Source: a virus
Direction: 5' to 3' (one strand)
IMG/VR virus record: IMGVR_UViG_3300035208_006812
DNA length: 26,606 nucleotides
The notes below the pieces were generated by a model. The model did not search any database and was not told the origin of the DNA. It saw only the letters and a list, made by a program, of their open reading frames with translations. Shown here piece by piece: positions 3 through 8,394 of the stretch. Position 1 is the first letter of the stretch, and every line of letters begins with the position of its first letter. The position numbers were made by a program, and so were the translations under genes.

Positions 3-2387
3 TGTTCCCAGAACGGGACCCAACAAATCATGACATGTGCCGACGGTATAAGCCCGTGGACACTTCAAACAACCCCATACGCTGACGCTGTAACGTCCGG
101 TGGGTCTAGTACTGTCGTTCGTACTCTTGCCGCTCAGTCAAATGTAGGATGGAATTACACTACGTTAGCGACAGATTACAGCGCAAGTGTAAACCCAATG
201 ATTGAATTTGTCCTGCCTGCCTCCGGGCTTACTGCCGGGAATCATTACCGTATAGATAATGTACATGCAAGACTTCGGATAGTTAGCGCAGGTCCAACAG
301 CGTACTTAAAAGTAACTGCTCAGACAGCGACTATATCCGAAACAACTATTAAAGAATGGACCGAAACCTCAACAGTTTACCAGGACAAAAGCTATGATTG
401 TGTTTTCGAAGGAGCAGCAGACGAGGCCGTAACAATCAGGTTTTATCTTAAAACTTCCAATGCATCAATTAGAGCCGGAGCCGATAACATGGGTTATGAC
501 GCTTCGGAAATGACAAGCGGCTCATCTACGATAACATATTCCCGTAATCTATGGCGAGATATTTGTTATTCGGATGAGTTGAACCTCGCGGTAGTTGTCT
601 GCTATGACACATCATTAACTAATAATGTCATGTATTCTCAGACCGGGACTAATTGGTATATGGTCCCTTCGATAGCTGCAAATCAGTGGTGGTCAGTTGA
701 ATATTCACCGGAAACTAGAACATTCATTGCAGTAGGTCAAACAGGCTCAGAAAGGGTTATGTTAGCCAGGGGTTACGGTGAACTTGTTGATATAGCGCCA
801 GACAACTGGACAAAGGTAACCGACGGCCAGGAAGCAAGCGACGAGCATACAAATGGCAGTGTTTATACTTACATGATTAAAGGTAATGGAGTAGACGAAA
901 ACCCAGGATACATTTATCAAAAATTACCGTTTGACTCCATGTATGACGCAGGCGAGCTTTATATTTTAAAATCGTCGGCTTATGTAGAGGGTTTGACCTC
1001 CGGAGCTTTCGCGGTTGACATCTTTGCAGGTGGAACAATCGTAAAGGAATTGATATGGGACGCTAACACCAGCGAAATAGACACAAAGGAAATACGGTTT
1101 ATCTTTGATACCATACCGCTAAATGTTTATGCCCGGATACGTGGAATAAATACACCAAATGACGGAGCGTATTTTTATAACTCGAACATTATAGTATCAA
1201 AGGTTCAGGAATATGAAAATGACCAGGTCGGCGCACCAATAGCGACCTTTGGATATAGGGACGCAACACCAAATATTAAATTAAAGGGTGTGGGCACTAA
1301 TACAATGTCCGCAGACTCAAACCGGATAATATCAGACAAGGATTACGATACTTATACAACTACCTCAACAAGTTATGGAGATCCAATAAAAACAATAACC
1401 TTGCCTGCCCTTACAGGCGGCTCTAAATATCAGTTAGATGCTTTATCATTTGACTTTAAAACCAATAGCACGGGAGCGTATATATATTGTAAAACTACAA
1501 TTCAGGCACCTTCGCTTTTTGGTGGAGCTGAGCGCGATATAAGCATGTATACAACCAACGGGACCAGCTATGAATATAGGCGTTACAAACTGCCTTATCC
1601 TTTGATCTCAGAGACTAACGAGCAGGTAATATTTAGGTGGTATATCCGGATCTCAAAAACCGGTTACACTGGATATGTCAAAAATGCATGGTATCAGTTT
1701 ACAGAGTTGCTAGATGTAAACACTACTAAAAATGTTCCAATCTACCTATATAATACGAATGATTCCCGGATAGTTTTAACATGCTGTGATAGTCTCCCGC
1801 CAGGTTACCAGGTAGAAATAAATAAAAACGGTACCGGTAGCTATAGGTATATAGAATCATTTGCAGATGATAATTTCATATCAAATGCTTATGAGGTAGT
1901 AGGTGGTGTTTCCAGAGACGAAACAGAACAAACGCTTTATATACCCGATGGAGGTTCAATAACATTTCCAATGAGTACCTATTATCCTGTTTCCGGAGTT
2001 CCGTTTATAAAAATGCTCGTTGTATCGGGAATACCTCAGATTTCTATAGCTGTGGATACTGGAAGCGGACCCGGCACTTTTTACGAAGTTGATTCTAACA
2101 CTTCTGTATCTGTAGAGAATGCCGAAGTTATCAGACTTCTTGACAATGCAGCAGACTTAACACTGAGGGGTGAAAGGAAGTTCTATGTAAAGATATCCAA
2201 CTTGTCCGGGGCTTCTTGTACATTCGGTCAAATGCTTATTTACTCAACTCTTGACACTATCGACGCAAGAAGGTTAAAAATATATTCTGCAATTAATCCC
2301 AATGCAATAGCGGTAGAGGTCGGCGGTGATGGTAAATGCAGTGCCGTATTATCAATAGACTACAGGGATACCCAAATAATAACATGA
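3..2387 (+). CDS. Tail protein, probably a distal tail (Dit)-like protein with inserted beta-propeller blades and carbohydrate-binding-like beta-sandwich domains; 5'-truncated by the window
   Basis: The frame is open from base 3 (CSQNGTQQI before the ATG at 30), and this stretch continues a propeller-type repeat also seen as WRDICYSDEL...MYSQTGTNW and WWSVEYSPET...GSERVM. Directly upstream of the hub gene, where Dit sits in siphoviruses. FGYRDATPNIKLKG and the C-terminal N-AI-V...LSIDYRD resemble Dit. Two internal ~120-aa repeats (aa 41-158 and 438-559 from the ATG at 30). Confidence 0.7.
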   Translation, partial: CSQNGTQQIMTCADGISPWTLQTTPYADAVTSGGSSTVVRTLAAQSNVGWNYTTLATDYSASVNPMIEFVLPASGLTAGNHYRIDNVHARLRIVSAGPTAYLKVTAQTATISETTIKEWTETSTVYQDKSYDCVFEGAADEAVTIRFYLKTSNASIRAGADNMGYDASEMTSGSSTITYSRNLWRDICYSDELNLAVVVCYDTSLTNNVMYSQTGTNWYMVPSIAANQWWSVEYSPETRTFIAVGQTGSERVMLARGYGELVDIAPDNWTKVTDGQEASDEHTNGSVYTYMIKGNGVDENPGYIYQKLPFDSMYDAGELYILKSSAYVEGLTSGAFAVDIFAGGTIVKELIWDANTSEIDTKEIRFIFDTIPLNVYARIRGINTPNDGAYFYNSNIIVSKVQEYENDQVGAPIATFGYRDATPNIKLKGVGTNTMSADSNRIISDKDYDTYTTTSTSYGDPIKTITLPALTGGSKYQLDALSFDFKTNSTGAYIYCKTTIQAPSLFGGAERDISMYTTNGTSYEYRRYKLPYPLISETNEQVIFRWYIRISKTGYTGYVKNAWYQFTELLDVNTTKNVPIYLYNTNDSRIVLTCCDSLPPGYQVEINKNGTGSYRYIESFADDNFISNAYEVVGGVSRDETEQTLYIPDGGSITFPMSTYYPVSGVPFIKMLVVSGIPQISIAVDTGSGPGTFYEVDSNTSVSVENAEVIRLLDNAADLTLRGERKFYVKISNLSGASCTFGQMLIYSTLDTIDARRLKIYSAINPNAIAVEVGGDGKCSAVLSIDYRDTQIIT

Positions 2388-2396
2388 GGTCATAAC

Positions 2397-3566
2397 ATGA
2401 TAAGATTTTATGACTACTCAGCAAGAATACAGAAGCTCACAGGGGAGGTTTATTATCCTCCTGTAGTTTCATTTAGTACAGTCGATAACCTGCCATTTCA
2501 GAACTCTCCGGAGGCATCTATAGAGGTCATAGCGAATGAGAATTTATCAGGCATACAAAACATTACCCCAATAGAATTTGATGATATCATAAGGCTGAGC
2601 GTATCTATCAGGTATCATCCGAAGGATGTACCAGTATATGTTAATCTATTTGAGGGAAAAGTTCAGAACATATCTAAAAATTATGGAGAACTGAACACGG
2701 TAACACTTCAATGTGTAGGCCATATTTATGAAGTGTTCGACACTCTGGAAGTATTCGGCCATTCATGGACAAGTACAGTAGACGCAAAAACAATTATATC
2801 AACCCTTATGAGCGAGTCTCATAAGCTCAGCCGGGTAGAGTATGACGCTTCGTATGTTGATTCCGGTGTGACACTTCCAGAATTTAACGTCGAAGCTGAA
2901 AAAATGTTTCTGAATCAGGTACTTTCTAAAATAGAAGAAATATCCGGGTATACAAAATACTTCGATACTGTCCAAATATACGATAGATGGGGCATACTGC
3001 AACATATTTACCTTACATTTAAATCAATATCAGCAGCGGTAACGCATAAATACGAAATTAACGAAGGTTCTAACAGGCTTATTGCTGCCTCGGTTGACTC
3101 CATAGGCGAGGATGTAAAAACCTTTAGGTATGTCGTTGGAGGAACCGACGAGGTAACGGGGACCACATACCACGCCGACGTATCAGACTCGGTGGCAGTT
3201 TCTATACATGGTCCTCGTTATGCTCTTGATACCTACTCGTGGATCATGTCAAACTCATTATGTACTCAGGTAGCACAGGGTTTACTAGATGGTTCAAAAG
3301 ATCCATATGTCTCTATATCATGCACTTTAGAGGGAACACCAGACGCGCACAAGGGAGACCTTGTTAAAGTTGATTTTCACACACTGGATTTAAAGGGAGT
3401 TGCAGTATCCGGGAATTACCGCGTCGCAAAGGTGCAGCATCGTTTATCTGAAACAGGAGCTTATACAACTCAGTTAGACCTGAACAGGGTAAAAATGACT
3501 CCAACGGAATATACGATAAAGTACATTTCACAGAAATTAAATACTGTATTGACAAACCAGGCATAA
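2397..3566 (+). CDS. Baseplate hub / Tal-like tail protein (gp27/GPD-like fold)
   Basis: 389 aa, RBS GAGGT. Motifs LFEGKVQNISK...VTLQCVG, DSVAVSIHGPR, VSISCTLEGTPDAHKGDLVKV and GNYRVAKVQHRLSETGAYTTQLDL are typical of hub proteins. Follows the Dit-like gene. Confidence 0.75.
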   Translation: MIRFYDYSARIQKLTGEVYYPPVVSFSTVDNLPFQNSPEASIEVIANENLSGIQNITPIEFDDIIRLSVSIRYHPKDVPVYVNLFEGKVQNISKNYGELNTVTLQCVGHIYEVFDTLEVFGHSWTSTVDAKTIISTLMSESHKLSRVEYDASYVDSGVTLPEFNVEAEKMFLNQVLSKIEEISGYTKYFDTVQIYDRWGILQHIYLTFKSISAAVTHKYEINEGSNRLIAASVDSIGEDVKTFRYVVGGTDEVTGTTYHADVSDSVAVSIHGPRYALDTYSWIMSNSLCTQVAQGLLDGSKDPYVSISCTLEGTPDAHKGDLVKVDFHTLDLKGVAVSGNYRVAKVQHRLSETGAYTTQLDLNRVKMTPTEYTIKYISQKLNTVLTNQA

Positions 3567-4005: not shown

Positions 4006-4263
4006 TCACCTAAACTTTTTATTGGCTTCTGCTTTAGTTTTTATCCGGTCTAATGTATCCCACCAGGATACCGGCAATAACTCCAACTCTTTAAAGATGT
4101 CAATTTCCGGGCTATCATCCGCCCTGATGCTGTCATTTATGCCTTTCTGAGACACAGGCAACCATTTATTTTTATCCTCATTGAAATCTATTTCAATCCA
4201 TAAATGAGATAAGGGAGGTAAAAATACCTCGGGTTTATCTCTTTCTGGCTGGTATTCGTTCAT
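4006..4263 (-). CDS. Hypothetical protein, 85 aa
   Basis: TGATG stop/start overlap with the upstream gene. Confidence 0.65.
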   Translation of the reverse strand: MNEYQPERDKPEVFLPPLSHLWIEIDFNEDKNKWLPVSQKGINDSIRADDSPEIDIFKELELLPVSWWDTLDRIKTKAEANKKFR

Positions 4264-4997
4264 CAGATCGCTATTTCAAATGTTCGTCCGGCTTTCTTTT
4301 GGACCTCAGCAATTTCTTTACGGGCAGCTACCAGGGCGTTACCTGCTGCTTTCATAGTGGATATAATCCACTTGAGGTCTGAGCCGTCAAACAAGGAAGA
4401 ACCGATAACAAGCCACTTTGTACGAAGGTTTGTACGTATGCAAAGTTCTTTTCCATTATCCGGGGACCTCTTGACAGTATAGAAGGCTACATTTCCATAT
4501 CTGTAAATGTCCGGGAGCTCTTCGAAAGGCAATACATTATGTACTGATTTAACCCTGAACAGCAGGTTACTTTCATGAGGGACCATTTCAAAAGTAATCT
4601 TACATACCGAATGATCATTTGATAACTGATTTCTCAGTTCTGCATTCCTTGAGAGCCCTTTAGGACCGCATGAATCGGCAGATACGACGGAGCCAGGTGA
4701 ACCAGTTGATTTACTTTTATCTTTTGCTGTAGCTTCTCTGAGTGGTCCGAGCGGTGACACGGTGAGATACTTGTCCATGAGTTCTAAAGTCTCATCCGCC
4801 AGGACCGGAACAAACATAACCTTTGGTGAAGGGTTTAAAGCTACATTAACCTGAGAGCCTTCGAGTTTGCTCACGAAATCCCGAGCCTGCTTTACCATTT
4901 CATCAAATGGGTTATTTTCCTCTAATGTAACCTGTCCGGTTAAAAGTTTGTTGTTGTTCTCAAGAAGTTCTTTAATGATTGTGTCTATACCATTCAT
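4263..4997 (-). CDS. Hypothetical protein, 244 aa
   Basis: Long ORF coupled to the downstream gene; no motif recognised. Confidence 0.7.
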   Translation of the reverse strand: MNGIDTIIKELLENNNKLLTGQVTLEENNPFDEMVKQARDFVSKLEGSQVNVALNPSPKVMFVPVLADETLELMDKYLTVSPLGPLREATAKDKSKSTGSPGSVVSADSCGPKGLSRNAELRNQLSNDHSVCKITFEMVPHESNLLFRVKSVHNVLPFEELPDIYRYGNVAFYTVKRSPDNGKELCIRTNLRTKWLVIGSSLFDGSDLKWIISTMKAAGNALVAARKEIAEVQKKAGRTFEIAI

Positions 4998-5057
4998 ATA
5001 TTATCATATCCTCGATTTTTTGTTTATTTCAGTTGATTTTCTGTTATTTTTCATCAA

Positions 5058-5711
5058 TTAATTGAAGTTTTTAACTAAAAACTCTTGTATTTTGCAATGT
5101 TCTGTTTTTATGCCATTGCCTGAAGAAATAAGTTTAGAGACATAAAGCTCATTTTTACTTATTACCTCTGGCGGGATAGTGTCCAGGAAGTCTATAAACT
5201 CCCTCTCAGTACTGCATCTACGTACACTAACATCGAGGCAGTTAAGGGACCAGCTTTTACTAATCGGCTTGTAATACTGCCAATACTTAGACATTCCGGA
5301 ATTACCGGGCACTGGATCATGTGTTTTTTGTCTGCTCAGTGCGTACCTTATTTCGTGTTTAACCTTCGGTCTTTGAAGCTTAATAGCGTTTTGGGTAGTA
5401 TCAAGACTGCTTTTACAATAGGAATACATCCTATTGAACAACTCATCCGGAGTATGTAAACTTCCGCTGTCCTGCCCATCCGGTGTATATATTTCGATGC
5501 TGTCAACTATGCAAGAATCGCTTATAACATAAGATTCTGAAAACATAGCTACGAAATACTTTTCGAAATTCTCAACGGGCTTTATAAACCAGTCAAAGAA
5601 CTTGAACTTTCTTAAATTAAGTTCACCATCGGGCTGAATCAATACTATCTGAAGGATAGTTAAATTAGATCCGTCGGACGGTGGTTTTATTATTCCTTTG
5701 TATCGGTCCAT
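5058..5711 (-). CDS. Hypothetical protein, 217 aa
   Basis: Strong RBS AAGGTGAT upstream of the ATG; first gene on the left arm of a divergent promoter. Confidence 0.7.
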   Translation of the reverse strand: MDRYKGIIKPPSDGSNLTILQIVLIQPDGELNLRKFKFFDWFIKPVENFEKYFVAMFSESYVISDSCIVDSIEIYTPDGQDSGSLHTPDELFNRMYSYCKSSLDTTQNAIKLQRPKVKHEIRYALSRQKTHDPVPGNSGMSKYWQYYKPISKSWSLNCLDVSVRRCSTEREFIDFLDTIPPEVISKNELYVSKLISSGNGIKTEHCKIQEFLVKNFN

Positions 5712-5953: not shown

Positions 5954-6244
5954 ATGACCACGAACAGCTATAACGATACCCTGAATATAATTTTCGGGGA
6001 TAACCGACGGGTAAACATCTTGCGTTTACTTTATGAAATGAGTACGCAGGGAGACCCAATATATATAAGAAAAATAGTTACGAGGACGGGATACACTCCC
6101 CAGACAGTTACAAATCATATAAACGAGCTTGAAAAGTATGGAGTGATAAAACGAACACAGCGCGAAGGTTCGCCGACAAAATACATAGACCTCAATGAAA
6201 ATGTTGAGGGCGTGATAGATCTTATTCAAGGTTTGAAACTATGA
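5954..6244 (+). CDS. Winged helix-turn-helix transcriptional regulator (ArsR-like)
   Basis: RRVNILRLL...IRKIVTRTGYTPQTVTNHINELEKYGVIKR matches the wHTH pattern; RBS GAGGT. Confidence 0.85.
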   Translation: MTTNSYNDTLNIIFGDNRRVNILRLLYEMSTQGDPIYIRKIVTRTGYTPQTVTNHINELEKYGVIKRTQREGSPTKYIDLNENVEGVIDLIQGLKL

Positions 6245-7578
6245 TCGACTGTTCAGGCATCTCCACAGCTTCACAACTTCAAAAGTACTTTGATAAATAC
6301 GGAGCTGAAACATATCAATTTAGTAAGAATCAAAAGATTGCTGTAGATACTCGGATGAATATAAACGGGGCGTATAACCTAAAGGGGTTTTCTGCATATG
6401 CAGATATGCCCATTTTCAAGTTAAACCCGAGAGTATCCGAAAAAGACTTCGGTATACAGGAAGCAATTATAACCATCAATGGGGCAGGACCTTCTATAGA
6501 AGGTATCCGCTTTGATGGGAATGACGTAAACCAACTATTTGAAAGAGGAGATGGTTACCACAACTTCATAAAACTATACAAGACTACAGGCTTCAGAGCA
6601 GACCGGTTATATGTCGAGAACTCACTCGGGGATGGAATCCGGGCACAGTTTGCGGATGATACCGAAATATCAAGAATGGGAGTTCATCAATGTGGGCATG
6701 ATGGAATATACTTGCAGGAATCTAAAAATGTAATTGTTTCGGGATGTGTGTTTCATATCCGGACCAATTGTGCTACAAGGTTCAGAGCTTGTGAGAATGC
6801 CCAATTTTATAATAATTGGGTTGAAAATCAAATCCATACAGGCATAAGCACAGGGCCAGGTCTCCAACTTGAGAATTCAACAACCTCGACAACTGCAAAA
6901 GATTACAGCATATTTAACAACTACTTCAAAAACACTGATGGTCCGGGAATATGGGCTATTAATACATATGCTGCAAGTCCGGACGCTGCAACAGGCTTGA
7001 ACATCTACCAAAACACGTTTGAGAATTGCGGCCAGGGAGGGCACTATAAGAATGTCACAAGTACAGGCGGTATTTGTGTCGATGGTTGGAAGGCAGGAAT
7101 CTATCAAAACCTTTTCACGGGTTGCAGCTCTGGCGTGACTATAGGTCCTTGGGTTTCAATAACTCCGGCTGGTTCCGGGTATCAAGTAACAGTTAAAAAT
7201 AATATGTTTGCTCACTGTGCAGCAGGCAAGCAGGTCTATTCATCGGCTGGTACAGGCATAGACAAAACTTCTAAAGTTAATACAAAAGTTTCATGTTCTG
7301 AAAATTGGTTCTATGAAAATAAAAATGACTATTTCGGGACGGGAGAGACGACACAGATAAACCCATACCTAACGCTAAATAATCATCTATATGTAATAGG
7401 TGATAAATCAAGCGTCGAGGGAAGGGGTATAGGCGCAAAAGATGTAAACAACACATATGAGTCAACTGGTGTTGAAAAGGTCGAAATTAGAATATCAAAG
7501 ATTCTGAAGGTAAGATACTCGGATAAATACCCGAATGTTCTTCCTGAAGGTGTGATAATATGGAAGCGTAAATCATGA
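6241..7578 (+). CDS. Right-handed parallel beta-helix protein resembling the Methanosarcina disaggregatase family; putative polysaccharide-degrading enzyme
   Basis: Repeated N-x-F/I-x-N-N beta-helix rungs. Ordered motifs FDGN, GDGYHN, GDG, GHDG, RTN, GPGLQLE, NTDGPGIW, GGI match those I recall from Methanosarcina disaggregatase-related proteins. ATGA overlap with the wHTH gene. Confidence 0.75.
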   Translation: MIDCSGISTASQLQKYFDKYGAETYQFSKNQKIAVDTRMNINGAYNLKGFSAYADMPIFKLNPRVSEKDFGIQEAIITINGAGPSIEGIRFDGNDVNQLFERGDGYHNFIKLYKTTGFRADRLYVENSLGDGIRAQFADDTEISRMGVHQCGHDGIYLQESKNVIVSGCVFHIRTNCATRFRACENAQFYNNWVENQIHTGISTGPGLQLENSTTSTTAKDYSIFNNYFKNTDGPGIWAINTYAASPDAATGLNIYQNTFENCGQGGHYKNVTSTGGICVDGWKAGIYQNLFTGCSSGVTIGPWVSITPAGSGYQVTVKNNMFAHCAAGKQVYSSAGTGIDKTSKVNTKVSCSENWFYENKNDYFGTGETTQINPYLTLNNHLYVIGDKSSVEGRGIGAKDVNNTYESTGVEKVEIRISKILKVRYSDKYPNVLPEGVIIWKRKS

Positions 7579-8144
7579 ACGAAGAGAAAACATATAGTTC
7601 TGACCCAAAATATGTATTCACAACTAAATACAGTGATTTTGAGCTAGATACTAATAGACATCCAGAAGCTACGGTTACCTTACCGGCAAAAGACGGTTAC
7701 GACCTTAAATTGTTAGAACTGACTGTAAATATGTGTACTCAGTCAATAGGTAATACTGCATATTGTACATATCTTTTAAAAATCGATGGTGCAATATTTA
7801 ACCCCAATTTAACACTAAAGACTACCTCAACTGGATACACTCCGATAAAAGCTTCAATTAGTAAGCAGATCAGGACCTCAAATGATGTAACCTTTTATTT
7901 ACATCTCAAAACCTCAAACTCTGCTTCTAAAGCTATGGTAAAAAACTTTCAGATAAAATACAAATATGTAGCAAAAACCGTAAACGTGGCACCAGTCACA
8001 CCAGAACAGGACACAAGCGAGGCGGAAAATTTGGAATATATATTATATATTTCCGGATCAGAAACGGATGTGGAAGCGGCAATTTCTGAACTTAAAAAAG
8101 AGTTTGGAGATAAAGCCACAGTGGAAACATATTCAAAAAAGTGA
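7575..8144 (+). CDS. Beta-sandwich protein homologous to the repeated domain in the tail protein; putative glycan-binding module
   Basis: TVTLPAKDG..L..L....TQSIGNTAYC and TTSTGY...VTFYLHLKTSNSASKAMVKN align with repeats in ORF 30-2387. ATGA overlap with the beta-helix gene. Confidence 0.7.
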   Translation: MNEEKTYSSDPKYVFTTKYSDFELDTNRHPEATVTLPAKDGYDLKLLELTVNMCTQSIGNTAYCTYLLKIDGAIFNPNLTLKTTSTGYTPIKASISKQIRTSNDVTFYLHLKTSNSASKAMVKNFQIKYKYVAKTVNVAPVTPEQDTSEAENLEYILYISGSETDVEAAISELKKEFGDKATVETYSKK

Positions 8145-8148
8145 TTCA

Positions 8149-8394
8149 ATGGCAAAGGACAGGTACAAATTTAAAAGGGATAAATCAAATATGGCTCCGG
8201 GTTGTAACGTGCCCGGATACAAGCCAAAAAGGAATAAAAAACGGAGCAAGACCAATATAAACACAGAAAAGGTGAAATATATAACTCCAATCTGTCCCTT
8301 GGGTGGTAAATGTATTCAACCCCCAGGAGAGGACGGTTATAACCCTGCAAACTGTAAGAAATGCTCTAAGATGATCGAGGGTTTATCATGGTAA
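8149..8394 (+). CDS. Basic protein with C-terminal Cys cluster (putative Zn finger), 81 aa
   Basis: Start moved to the ATG at 8149, 4 nt after the upstream stop; CPLGGKC...NCKKC; Lys/Arg-rich. Confidence 0.6.
   Translation: MAKDRYKFKRDKSNMAPGCNVPGYKPKRNKKRSKTNINTEKVKYITPICPLGGKCIQPPGEDGYNPANCKKCSKMIEGLSW

What the first reader, a model, noticed from the sequence alone, without database searches (positions are those of the whole stretch)
7575..8144. Free-standing copy of the tail protein's repeated domain, translationally coupled to the putative matrix-degrading enzyme
Seen: the 189-aa protein aligns by eye with two repeats in the tail protein. TVTLPAKDG-YDLKLLELTVNMCTQSIGNTAYC matches TITLPALTGGSKYQLDALSFDFKTNSTGAYIYC (tail aa ~457-489). 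TTSTGY...VTFYLHLKTSNSASKAMVKN matches ETSTVY...VTIRFYLKTSNASIRAGADN (tail aa ~112-153). It starts by ATGA overlap on the enzyme's stop. Inference: one glycan-recognition module is used both on the tail for adsorption and as a soluble partner. That partner could target the enzyme to the matrix (split catalytic plus binding system) or mask the receptor to block superinfection or re-adsorption.
Basis: partly seen in the sequence, partly recalled or inferred. Interest (0 to 1): 0.75.

Follow-up and report, generated by a model that had tools for sequence, protein, structure and literature searches.

The report
Jelly-roll partner of viral depolymerase
A small protein of a tailed virus, probably of methane-producing archaea, has the same sugar-binding-style fold that occurs twice in the virus's giant tail protein and is always encoded directly behind a matrix-degrading-type enzyme, so it is most likely that enzyme's non-catalytic binding partner, though nothing has been tested at the bench.

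Summary
ORF 7575-8144 (189 aa) overlaps the stop of the beta-helix/disaggregatase-related enzyme gene (6241-7578) by ATGA.

A profile built only from free-standing relatives hits the tail protein twice:
- aa 42-156: 61 bits; hhalign 97.6%.
- aa 433-570: 37 bits.

The protein has three parts: a confident jelly-roll (aa 1-133), a disordered acidic linker, and a 37-aa C-terminal mini-domain that the tail copies lack. The free domain and both tail domains share the same top PDB neighbours. These are TNF/C1q-like lectins, CBMs and fibre-tip heads, but the hit list is flat, so no ligand can be named.

The enzyme-then-partner pair is kept, 4 nt overlapping to 9 nt apart, in all nine informative lineages, down to about 25% identity. 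The flanking genes differ between them.

The copies are old paralogues. The two tail domains group together, away from the window's own free copy. "One shared module" and receptor masking are therefore not supported.

The "tail protein" is cut by the window edge. Relatives have about 1,870 aa, with their own disaggregatase-related part.

Best reading (about 0.5): the non-catalytic binding subunit of a two-gene depolymerase module. The family is unnamed. The scan noted a similar cassette earlier on other DNA. The host is inferred, not shown.

The parts
7575..8144 (+). Gene of the 189-aa free-standing protein (P0001), a member of an unnamed family of 164-193 aa proteins
   Evidence: Translation. 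Homologues. No Pfam or PHROG family. No signal peptide or membrane segment.
7575..7973 (+). Jelly-roll beta-sandwich domain, aa 1-133
   Evidence: AlphaFold2 pLDDT is 87-97 per 10-residue block, with ten strands. VIA-align gives Z 10.8 to the Pgp3 C-terminal domain (rmsd 3.3, 127 aligned), 10.0 to the PLTL lectin and 9.8 to CBM36.
7974..8030 (+). Acidic, Pro/Thr-rich linker, aa 134-152, predicted disordered
   Evidence: pLDDT is below 50 for aa 138-150. Length and sequence vary across the family.
8031..8141 (+). C-terminal mini-domain, aa 153-189 (extended segment, helix 163-177, extended segment). It is conserved in all free-standing members and absent from the tail copies.
   Evidence: An HMM of this part hits only the free-standing family among all ORFs of the window and loci.
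7575..7578 (+). ATGA start/stop overlap of enzyme and partner genes
   Evidence: Junctions in relatives are -4, -1, 0, +1, +2 and +9 nt.
6241..7578 (+). 445-aa right-handed beta-helix enzyme with a disaggregatase-related domain and no signal peptide
   Evidence: Pfam Beta_helix 1.2e-12 and Disaggr_assoc 1e-10 (42.3 bits against a cut-off of 22.6). Hydropathy.
3..2387 (+). C-terminal 794 aa of a giant tail protein, cut by the window edge. Relatives have about 1,870 aa with an N-terminal Disaggr_assoc part and a Laminin_G_3 domain.
   Evidence: It lies directly before a tail/baseplate-hub-like gene.
153..497 (+). Tail copy 1 of the jelly-roll (aa 42-156 of the ORF that starts at 30)
   Evidence: 61.4 bits to the family HMM. 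hhalign 97.6%. 40% identity to P0014. VIA-align Z 9.3 to 8okw_C. It is flanked on both sides by homologous repeat segments.
1326..1739 (+). Tail copy 2 of the jelly-roll (aa 433-570)
   Evidence: 36.8 bits to the family HMM. pLDDT 63-84. VIA-align Z 10.6 to 4jdn_A and 10.1 to 9ib6_A, the same top hits as P0001.
7936..7996 (.). Mosaic breakpoint against relative L001. DNA identity is about 75% to the left (from about 5650) and 98-100% to the right. It falls at P0001 aa 121-141, at the end of the jelly-roll.
   Evidence: Sliding identity. dS is 1.11 for aa 1-133 against 0.00 for aa 134-189.
5954..6244 (+). 96-aa MarR-type winged-helix gene that heads the operon. It is not conserved with the pair in distant relatives.
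   Evidence: Pfam MarR 1.3e-6. Relatives have a DUF1699 or RyR-domain gene in this position.

Best explanation
P0001 is the non-catalytic partner subunit of a two-gene depolymerase module.

- **Enzyme.** The upstream gene makes a beta-helix, disaggregatase-related glycan-degrading enzyme.
- **Binding part.** P0001 supplies a jelly-roll domain of the CBM / TNF-like-lectin / fibre-head kind, which binds a host envelope component.
- **Handle.** Its flexible linker and 37-aa C-terminal mini-domain serve as the handle for docking or oligomerisation. The tail copies do not need one because they are built into the tail polypeptide.
- **Production.** The overlapping or abutting stop and start codons give both proteins from one mRNA in a fixed ratio.
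- **Site of action.** Neither protein has an export signal, so they would act after lysis, or on the particle, on the matrix around neighbouring cells.

**What is shown and what is inferred**
- Shown: homology of the three domains, the fold, conservation of the pair, the free-form-specific mini-domain, and one block exchange of enzyme plus jelly-roll.
- Inferred: binding, the ligand, physical contact with the enzyme, the timing of action and the host.
For: **1. The pair is conserved.** The order enzyme then partner is kept in nine of nine informative lineages, while the neighbours differ. The junctions run from -4 to +9 nt.
- window/L003/L004/L010
- L001 (81% identity)
- L002 (56%)
- L011 (48%)
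- L008 (47%)
- L005/L006, L007, L017 and L018 (about 25-28%)

Sources.

**2. A natural fusion exists.** The giant tail protein carries a Disaggr_assoc part and two copies of the same jelly-roll in one chain.

**3. The fold fits a binding role.** The model is confident (pLDDT 87.5). Its neighbours are lectins, CBMs and phage fibre tips: Z 10.8, 10.0, 9.8 and 9.0, Foldseek 2e-5, and collagen-repeat/C1q-type phage fibre proteins in BFVD.

**4. The C-terminal mini-domain marks the free form.** It is conserved across the family and found nowhere else in these genomes.

**5. Enzyme and jelly-roll travel together.** Between the window and L001, the promoter region, regulator, enzyme and jelly-roll are about 75% identical. 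The linker, mini-domain and downstream genes are 98-100% identical, and the break lies at the domain boundary.

**6. The gene is under purifying selection.** dN/dS is 0.19 overall and 0.13 in the jelly-roll, so it is a working gene.
Against: - No binding, ligand or contact with the enzyme is shown, and no complex could be modelled.
- The structural hit list is flat: 32 chains reach Z 8 or more, so the fold alone assigns no function.
- In this lineage the pair sits at the head of an operon with nuclease- and replication-type genes, not with late or lysis genes. No membrane proteins follow it here.
- The block exchange is a single event. A second pair of relatives (L011 against L008) showed no breakpoint.
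- The host is not identified, so "methanochondroitin" as the target is a guess.
- The enzyme shows no BLAST similarity to the tail protein's own disaggregatase-related part.
Confidence: 0.5

Rival explanations
1. Virion-bound receptor-binding tip. The beta-helix protein is a side tailspike on the particle. P0001 sits on it, or on the baseplate through its C-terminal mini-domain, as a trimeric adhesin head. This would resemble small adhesins encoded directly after fibre genes.
For: - The nearest folds include trimeric TNF/C1q-like heads and phage or predatory-bacterium fibre tips.
- The same domain is part of the tail protein.
- The mini-domain stays with the conserved genome backbone when enzyme plus jelly-roll are exchanged. 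That would fit docking to a conserved virion part.
- In L007 the pair lies next to head genes.
Against: - The pair is not in the tail module in any locus, and its position varies like a mobile cassette.
- The enzyme has no recognisable tail-adaptor N-terminus and no PHROG tail family.
- In the window it is co-transcribed with a regulator and nuclease-type genes.
Confidence: 0.2
2. Assembly factor. P0001 is a dedicated chaperone needed to fold or trimerise the beta-helix enzyme, like the fibre-assembly proteins encoded after phage fibre genes. It has no role in binding the host.
For: The gene order and tight junction are strictly conserved. Stoichiometric co-production is plausible.
Against: - The protein has no hit in Pfam or PHROGs, which include the known phage fibre-assembly families.
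- The same domain is a permanent, twice-used part of a structural tail protein.
- The fold is that of binding modules.
- Other beta-helix proteins in the same elements have no such partner.
Confidence: 0.1
3. Receptor masking. Soluble P0001 coats the receptor that the tail domains recognise. It blocks superinfection or re-adsorption of progeny.
For: It is homologous to the tail domains. It lies in an early-type operon next to the regulatory switch.
Against: - It shares only about 25% identity with either tail copy and is not their closest relative.
- It has no export signal, so it cannot reach the surface of a living cell.
- This idea does not explain the strict pairing with the enzyme, or pairs in elements whose tail proteins lack the domain.
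Confidence: 0.05

Closest known systems
Carbohydrate-binding modules carried by phage baseplate proteins: 'evolved' distal tail proteins of lactic-acid-bacteria phages, and the separate accessory protein BppA of lactococcal phage Tuc2009. This is from my own knowledge and was not checked in a paper here.
   Same: Beta-sandwich binding modules are inserted into a large tail or baseplate protein. In the BppA case there is also a separate small protein that adds a second binding module.
   Different: No sequence relation was found. P0001 is paired with an enzyme gene outside the tail module and has its own C-terminal mini-domain. The Dit nature of the giant protein rests only on gene order, since it has no PHROG hit.
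TNF/C1q-like jelly-roll lectins and heads: Chlamydia Pgp3 C-terminal domain (4jdn), Photorhabdus lectin PLTL (9ib6), Bdellovibrio fibre tips (8okw, 8okh), and the cyanophage A-1(L) short-fibre CBD (8ke9)
   Same: They are the best structural neighbours of P0001 and of tail copy 2. Z is 10.8 and 10.0 for P0001, and 10.6 and 10.1 for tail copy 2.
   Different: Sequence identity is 8-12% and no sequence-level hit to any PDB chain was found. Trimer formation and sugar sites were not tested. Many unrelated jelly-rolls score nearly as well.
CBM36 / CBM6-type modules of glycoside hydrolases (7ay3, 1ux7, 8j3x)
   Same: They share the jelly-roll fold, Z 8.5-9.8 with rmsd 2.3-2.6. They are non-catalytic modules that accompany polysaccharide-degrading enzymes.
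   Different: Those modules are fused to their enzyme. Here the module is a separate polypeptide. There is no CAZy or Pfam membership, and the calcium or ligand sites were not examined.
Methanosarcina disaggregatase and disaggregatase-related proteins (Pfam PF08480)
   Same: The partner enzyme and the N-terminal part of the giant tail protein both pass the Pfam cut-off. Among 14 control genomes the family rings only in Methanosarcina acetivorans. The characterised enzyme cleaves methanochondroitin (PMC12369344).
   Different: The viral enzyme is short (445 aa), has no signal peptide and has no solved relative. No free-standing partner is described for the cellular enzyme in the papers found.
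   Same: It has the same kind of pair. In L007 two small membrane proteins do follow the partner.
   Different: In the window's lineage the next genes are a basic Cys-rich 81-aa protein and a basic 136-aa protein, not membrane proteins. The four-gene block is therefore not general.

Membership tests
Unnamed family of free-standing jelly-roll partners (defined here: P0001, P0005-P0008, P0010, P0011, P0013-P0017, P0019-P0021) | 164-193 aa with an N-terminal jelly-roll carrying the H-L-K-T-S strand motif, a variable acidic linker and a C-terminal mini-domain | tested here: met
   Alignment A2. phmmer E from 1.6e-46 to 9e-4 against 1.8 billion representatives. Model.
Unnamed family of free-standing jelly-roll partners | Encoded directly after a beta-helix / Disaggr_assoc gene | tested here: met
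   Nine of nine informative lineages. P0015's contig is too short to tell.
Carbohydrate-binding module (CAZy CBM families, e.g. CBM36/CBM6) | Beta-sandwich/jelly-roll fold | tested here: met
   Z 9.8 to 7ay3_A (rmsd 2.6, 107 aligned), 9.2 to 1ux7_A and 8.5 to 8j3x_A.
Carbohydrate-binding module (CAZy CBM families) | Sequence membership in a described CBM family | tested here: not met
   No Pfam family at E up to 1 except two sub-threshold chance hits. No PDB sequence hit with the family profile.
Carbohydrate-binding module (CAZy CBM families) | Demonstrated carbohydrate binding or a conserved ligand site | not testable with these tools
   This needs binding assays or a ligand-bound structure.
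TNF/C1q-like trimeric jelly-roll (Pgp3 C-terminal domain, PLTL) | Fold similarity over the whole domain | tested here: met
   Z 10.8 to 4jdn_A (127 aligned, rmsd 3.3) and 10.0 to 9ib6_A. Foldseek E 2e-5. However, the list is flat.
TNF/C1q-like trimeric jelly-roll | Homotrimer | not testable with these tools
   Only single chains can be predicted here.
Phage tail-fibre assembly / adhesin proteins encoded after fibre genes (Tfa, gp38 type) | Sequence membership in a known family | tested here: not met
   No Pfam or PHROG hit for P0001.
Phage tail-fibre assembly / adhesin proteins encoded after fibre genes | Gene immediately downstream of the fibre or spike gene it serves | tested here: inconclusive
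   It is immediately downstream of a beta-helix gene. That this beta-helix protein is a virion spike is not shown.
Disaggregatase-related proteins (PF08480), for the partner enzyme | Pfam score above the gathering cut-off | tested here: met
   42.3 bits against 22.6, plus Beta_helix at 48.2 bits against 25.9.
Evolved distal tail protein (Dit) with inserted binding modules, for the giant tail protein | Dit core recognisable, with the gene placed between the tape measure and the Tal/hub gene | tested here: inconclusive
   The next gene hits tail and baseplate-hub PHROGs. The giant protein itself has no PHROG hit, and its model is poor outside the two jelly-rolls.

The most novel reading that the evidence does not exclude
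The pair is a modular two-subunit depolymerase. Enzyme and jelly-roll form an exchangeable specificity cassette that swaps between viruses as one block. The conserved C-terminal mini-domain is a universal plug that docks the cassette onto a conserved viral (virion) component. That would be a detachable host-range module in archaeal tailed viruses, with the swap junction placed at the domain boundary.
Probability: 0.12. Interest if true: 0.7.

Novelty: new variant of a known kind. Interest (0 to 1): 0.5.

Why it matters
Very little is known about how tailed viruses of methanogens get through, or out of, the thick extracellular layers of their hosts.

This finding defines an unnamed protein family with:
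- a clear fold;
- a fixed genetic partner, a disaggregatase-type enzyme;
- paralogous copies in the tail.

That gives a concrete two-protein system to express and test for matrix binding and degradation. If the binding role holds, it would show that archaeal viruses use the same logic as bacterial enzymes and phages (catalytic module plus binding module), but split over two coupled genes. It would also supply reagents for dispersing methanogen aggregates.

Tried and rejected
- **Close-relative profile.** A profile of close relatives only (A1) gave only about 7 bits on the tail. The distant members were needed.
- **False positives.** Two hits of the wide search (P0012 at 408 aa, P0018 at 698 aa) are repetitive proteins matched by composition. 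I left them out.
- **Fused forms.** A search for longer proteins found nothing. It was crowded by chance candidates and even missed the known tail proteins, so it is weak evidence.
- **Family expansion.** A second profile search at near lengths added nothing new.
- **Host.** Two genome-contig scans found no relative. Alignments A2 and A3 were too diverged for pattern scans. No genome handle could be obtained. Cluster look-ups carried no names. The host stays inferred.
- **Annotated phage records.** There was no DNA or protein match for the region or the enzyme. The terminase is only about 30-35% identical to bacterial phage terminases.
- **Whole-tail model.** It was poor (pLDDT 41.9). Only the two jelly-rolls are usable.
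- **Longer beta-helix proteins.** Those of L005-L007 have no related domain (hhalign probability 0.1%).
- **C-terminal mini-domain.** It has no relative in any other ORF examined.
- **Second breakpoint.** A comparison of L011 with L008 showed no breakpoint.
- **Other resources.** ESM Atlas gave only low-score leads. The papers found describe no viral disaggregatase or partner.
Full report
**What is in the sequence**

ORF 7575-8144 on the plus strand encodes a 189-aa protein, P0001. Its ATG overlaps the TGA of ORF 6241-7578 in the string ATGA. The upstream protein, P0003, has 445 aa. It matches Pfam Beta_helix (1.2e-12) and Disaggr_assoc (1e-10; 42.3 bits against a cut-off of 22.6).

Neither protein has a hydrophobic N-terminus or a membrane segment.

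The window is most of a head-tail virus genome. It carries:
- small and large terminase, a portal-sized gene, a MuF-like gene, scaffold and major head protein;
- a tail/baseplate-hub-like gene at 2397-3566.

No whole genome is held for it.

**The "tail protein" is a fragment**

ORF 30-2387 is open at the window's 5' end. In close relatives the same gene encodes about 1,870 aa. Its N-terminal part is itself disaggregatase-related (PF08480, 2.1e-12). A Laminin_G_3 domain follows.

It sits directly before the hub-like gene, which is the usual place of a distal tail protein. It has no PHROG hit of its own.

**Is the similarity real?**

Pairwise evidence is weak.
- BLASTP gives E 0.008.
- Without composition adjustment, E is 1.4e-4 for copy 2 and 0.008 for copy 1.
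- Two or three of 2000 shuffles reach the observed Smith-Waterman score.

The wide sequence search settled the matter. Ten further clusters of 164-193 aa proteins are related to P0001. Two longer hits were repetitive false positives.

A profile of 14 free-standing members, with no tail sequence in it, hits the tail fragment twice.
- aa 42-156 at 61.4 bits;
- aa 433-570 at 36.8 bits.

The same two hits appear in the tails of L001, L003 and L011.

Further support:
- hhalign of the family against the tail alignment gives 97.6% probability, E 3.4e-12.
- Tail copy 1 is 40% identical over 87 aa to the distant free-standing protein P0014, E 1e-11.
- Copy 1 matches copy 2 of a relative at 27% identity, E 3e-6.

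In fact the whole domain aligns to both.

**Structure**

With the 14-sequence alignment, AlphaFold2 gives a confident model (pLDDT 87.5).
- aa 1-133: a ten-strand beta-sandwich.
- aa 138-150: a disordered stretch.
- aa 153-189: a C-terminal element with a helix at 163-177.

The best solved neighbours are listed.
- Pgp3 C-terminal TNF-like domain: Z 10.8.
- Lectin PLTL: Z 10.0.
- CBM36: Z 9.8.
- Bdellovibrio fibre tips: Z 8.8-9.3.
- A cyanophage short-fibre binding domain: Z 9.0.

Among predicted viral structures, the neighbours are uncharacterised tailed-phage proteins and collagen-repeat or C1q-type fibre proteins. The list is flat, with 32 chains at Z 8 or more. It names a fold class (jelly-roll of the lectin, CBM or fibre-head kind), not a function.

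The tail fragment was folded with tail sequences only. The model is poor overall (pLDDT 41.9). The two family-matching parts are its best parts and have the same strand order as P0001. They also find the same neighbours.
- Copy 2: 4jdn_A at Z 10.6 and 9ib6_A at Z 10.1.
- Copy 1: 8okw_C at Z 9.3 and 8xmz_B at Z 9.0.

**Conservation of the gene pair**

Every relative with enough upstream DNA has a 415-461 aa Beta_helix/Disaggr_assoc gene directly before the family member.

| Lineage | Identity to P0001 |
|---|---|
| window/L003/L004/L010 | 98-100% |
| L001 | 81% |
| L002 | 56% |
| L011 | 48% |
| L008 | 47% |
| L005/L006 | about 27% |
| L007 | about 27% |
| L017 | about 26% |
| L018 | about 28% |

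One contig was too short to tell.

The junctions are -4, -1, 0, +1, +2 or +9 nt.

The surroundings differ.
- The gene in front is a MarR-type, DUF1699 or RyR-domain gene.
- The pair lies beside a regulatory switch and nuclease-type genes here, beside head genes in L007, and near host-like genes in L005/L006.

The pair therefore behaves as a two-gene cassette. Only the window's group of viruses has the domain in its tail protein.

**History of the copies**

In a tree of the jelly-roll domain, the two tail copies are sisters (88/95). They lie among the distant free-standing forms. The free forms of the window's own group make a separate long-branch clade (100/100). The tree is unrooted and the alignment has only 125 columns, so no direction of transfer can be given. 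The free copy and the tail copies are nevertheless clearly old paralogues, not a recently shared module.

**A mosaic junction at the domain boundary**

Between the window and L001, DNA identity is about 75% from about 5650 to about 7936. It then jumps to 98-100%. The jump falls at about residue 121-141 of P0001, the last strand of the jelly-roll.

The synonymous rates agree.
- Jelly-roll: dS 1.11.
- Linker plus mini-domain: dS 0.00.
- Enzyme: dS saturated.
- The next gene is identical.

So the switch region, regulator, enzyme and jelly-roll were exchanged as one block, while the linker and mini-domain stayed with the backbone. This is one event. A second pair of relatives was uniformly diverged.

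dN/dS is 0.19 for the partner and 0.03-0.06 for the tail genes.

**Reading**

Four things point to a non-catalytic partner of the enzyme that supplies a binding domain:
- the strict pairing with the enzyme;
- the natural fusion of a disaggregatase-related part with the same jelly-roll in the tail protein;
- the binding-type fold;
- the free-form-specific mini-domain.

I put this at about 0.5. Contact with the enzyme, the ligand and the time of action are all inferred.

The rivals are:
- a virion-bound adhesin tip (0.2);
- an assembly chaperone (0.1);
- receptor masking (0.05). This last is disfavoured by the lack of an export signal, the low identity to the tail copies, and the presence of pairs in elements whose tails lack the domain.

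**Host and literature**

PF08480 rings only in Methanosarcina acetivorans among 14 control genomes. A DUF1699 gene accompanies the pair in L007. The characterised disaggregatase cleaves methanochondroitin of Methanosarcina (PMC12369344).

A Methanosarcina-type host and matrix target are therefore plausible but not shown. Genome scans found no provirus. The papers found describe no viral disaggregatase-like enzyme and no such partner.

Such membrane proteins follow the pair in L007 but not in this window.

Noticed in passing
window 3-2387; L001 1-5474; L003 1-4813: The tail ORF is cut by the window edge. The full protein in relatives has about 1,870 aa. It carries its own disaggregatase-related N-terminal part and a Laminin_G_3 domain. 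The free enzyme shows no BLAST similarity to that part.
   Followed up: partly
window 546-761 and the corresponding upstream segment in L003/L001/L010/L011: Tail aa 173-244, just after jelly-roll copy 1, is 33-38% identical to the about 72 aa that precede the window's start of the protein. Copy 1 therefore looks inserted between two homologous repeat units, which by eye resemble propeller blades.
   Followed up: partly
window 8149-8394: This 81-aa basic, Cys-rich ORF lies 4 nt after P0001. It is 100% identical to L001 even at synonymous sites, while the genes to its left are about 75% identical. It has no family hit. A 136-aa basic protein overlaps its end.
   Followed up: partly
window 4012-5646: The minus-strand cassette between the tail genes and the regulatory switch is largely non-homologous between the window and L001. 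It is part of the same variable region that ends inside P0001.
   Followed up: no
L005 12428-14242; L006 12208-14061; L007 11100-13028: These elements carry a second, longer beta-helix/Disaggr_assoc protein (604-642 aa). It has a hydrophobic C-terminal anchor and is followed by a conserved block of three genes, including a 918-1016 aa protein with a faint AAA_10 hit. It has no jelly-roll of this family.
   Followed up: partly
L007 8778-8921 and 9153-9500: Two small proteins, each with one strongly hydrophobic segment, follow the partner gene in L007. This fits the four-gene cassette noted earlier by this scan on another genome. They are absent from the window's lineage.
   Followed up: partly
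L017 2328-3158: In the P0020 lineage a further 276-aa Beta_helix protein follows the partner gene directly.
   Followed up: no
window 6241-7578 against L001 8667-10004: The enzyme's synonymous sites are saturated between two viruses whose neighbouring genes are nearly identical. That points to allele replacement rather than fast local evolution.
   Followed up: partly
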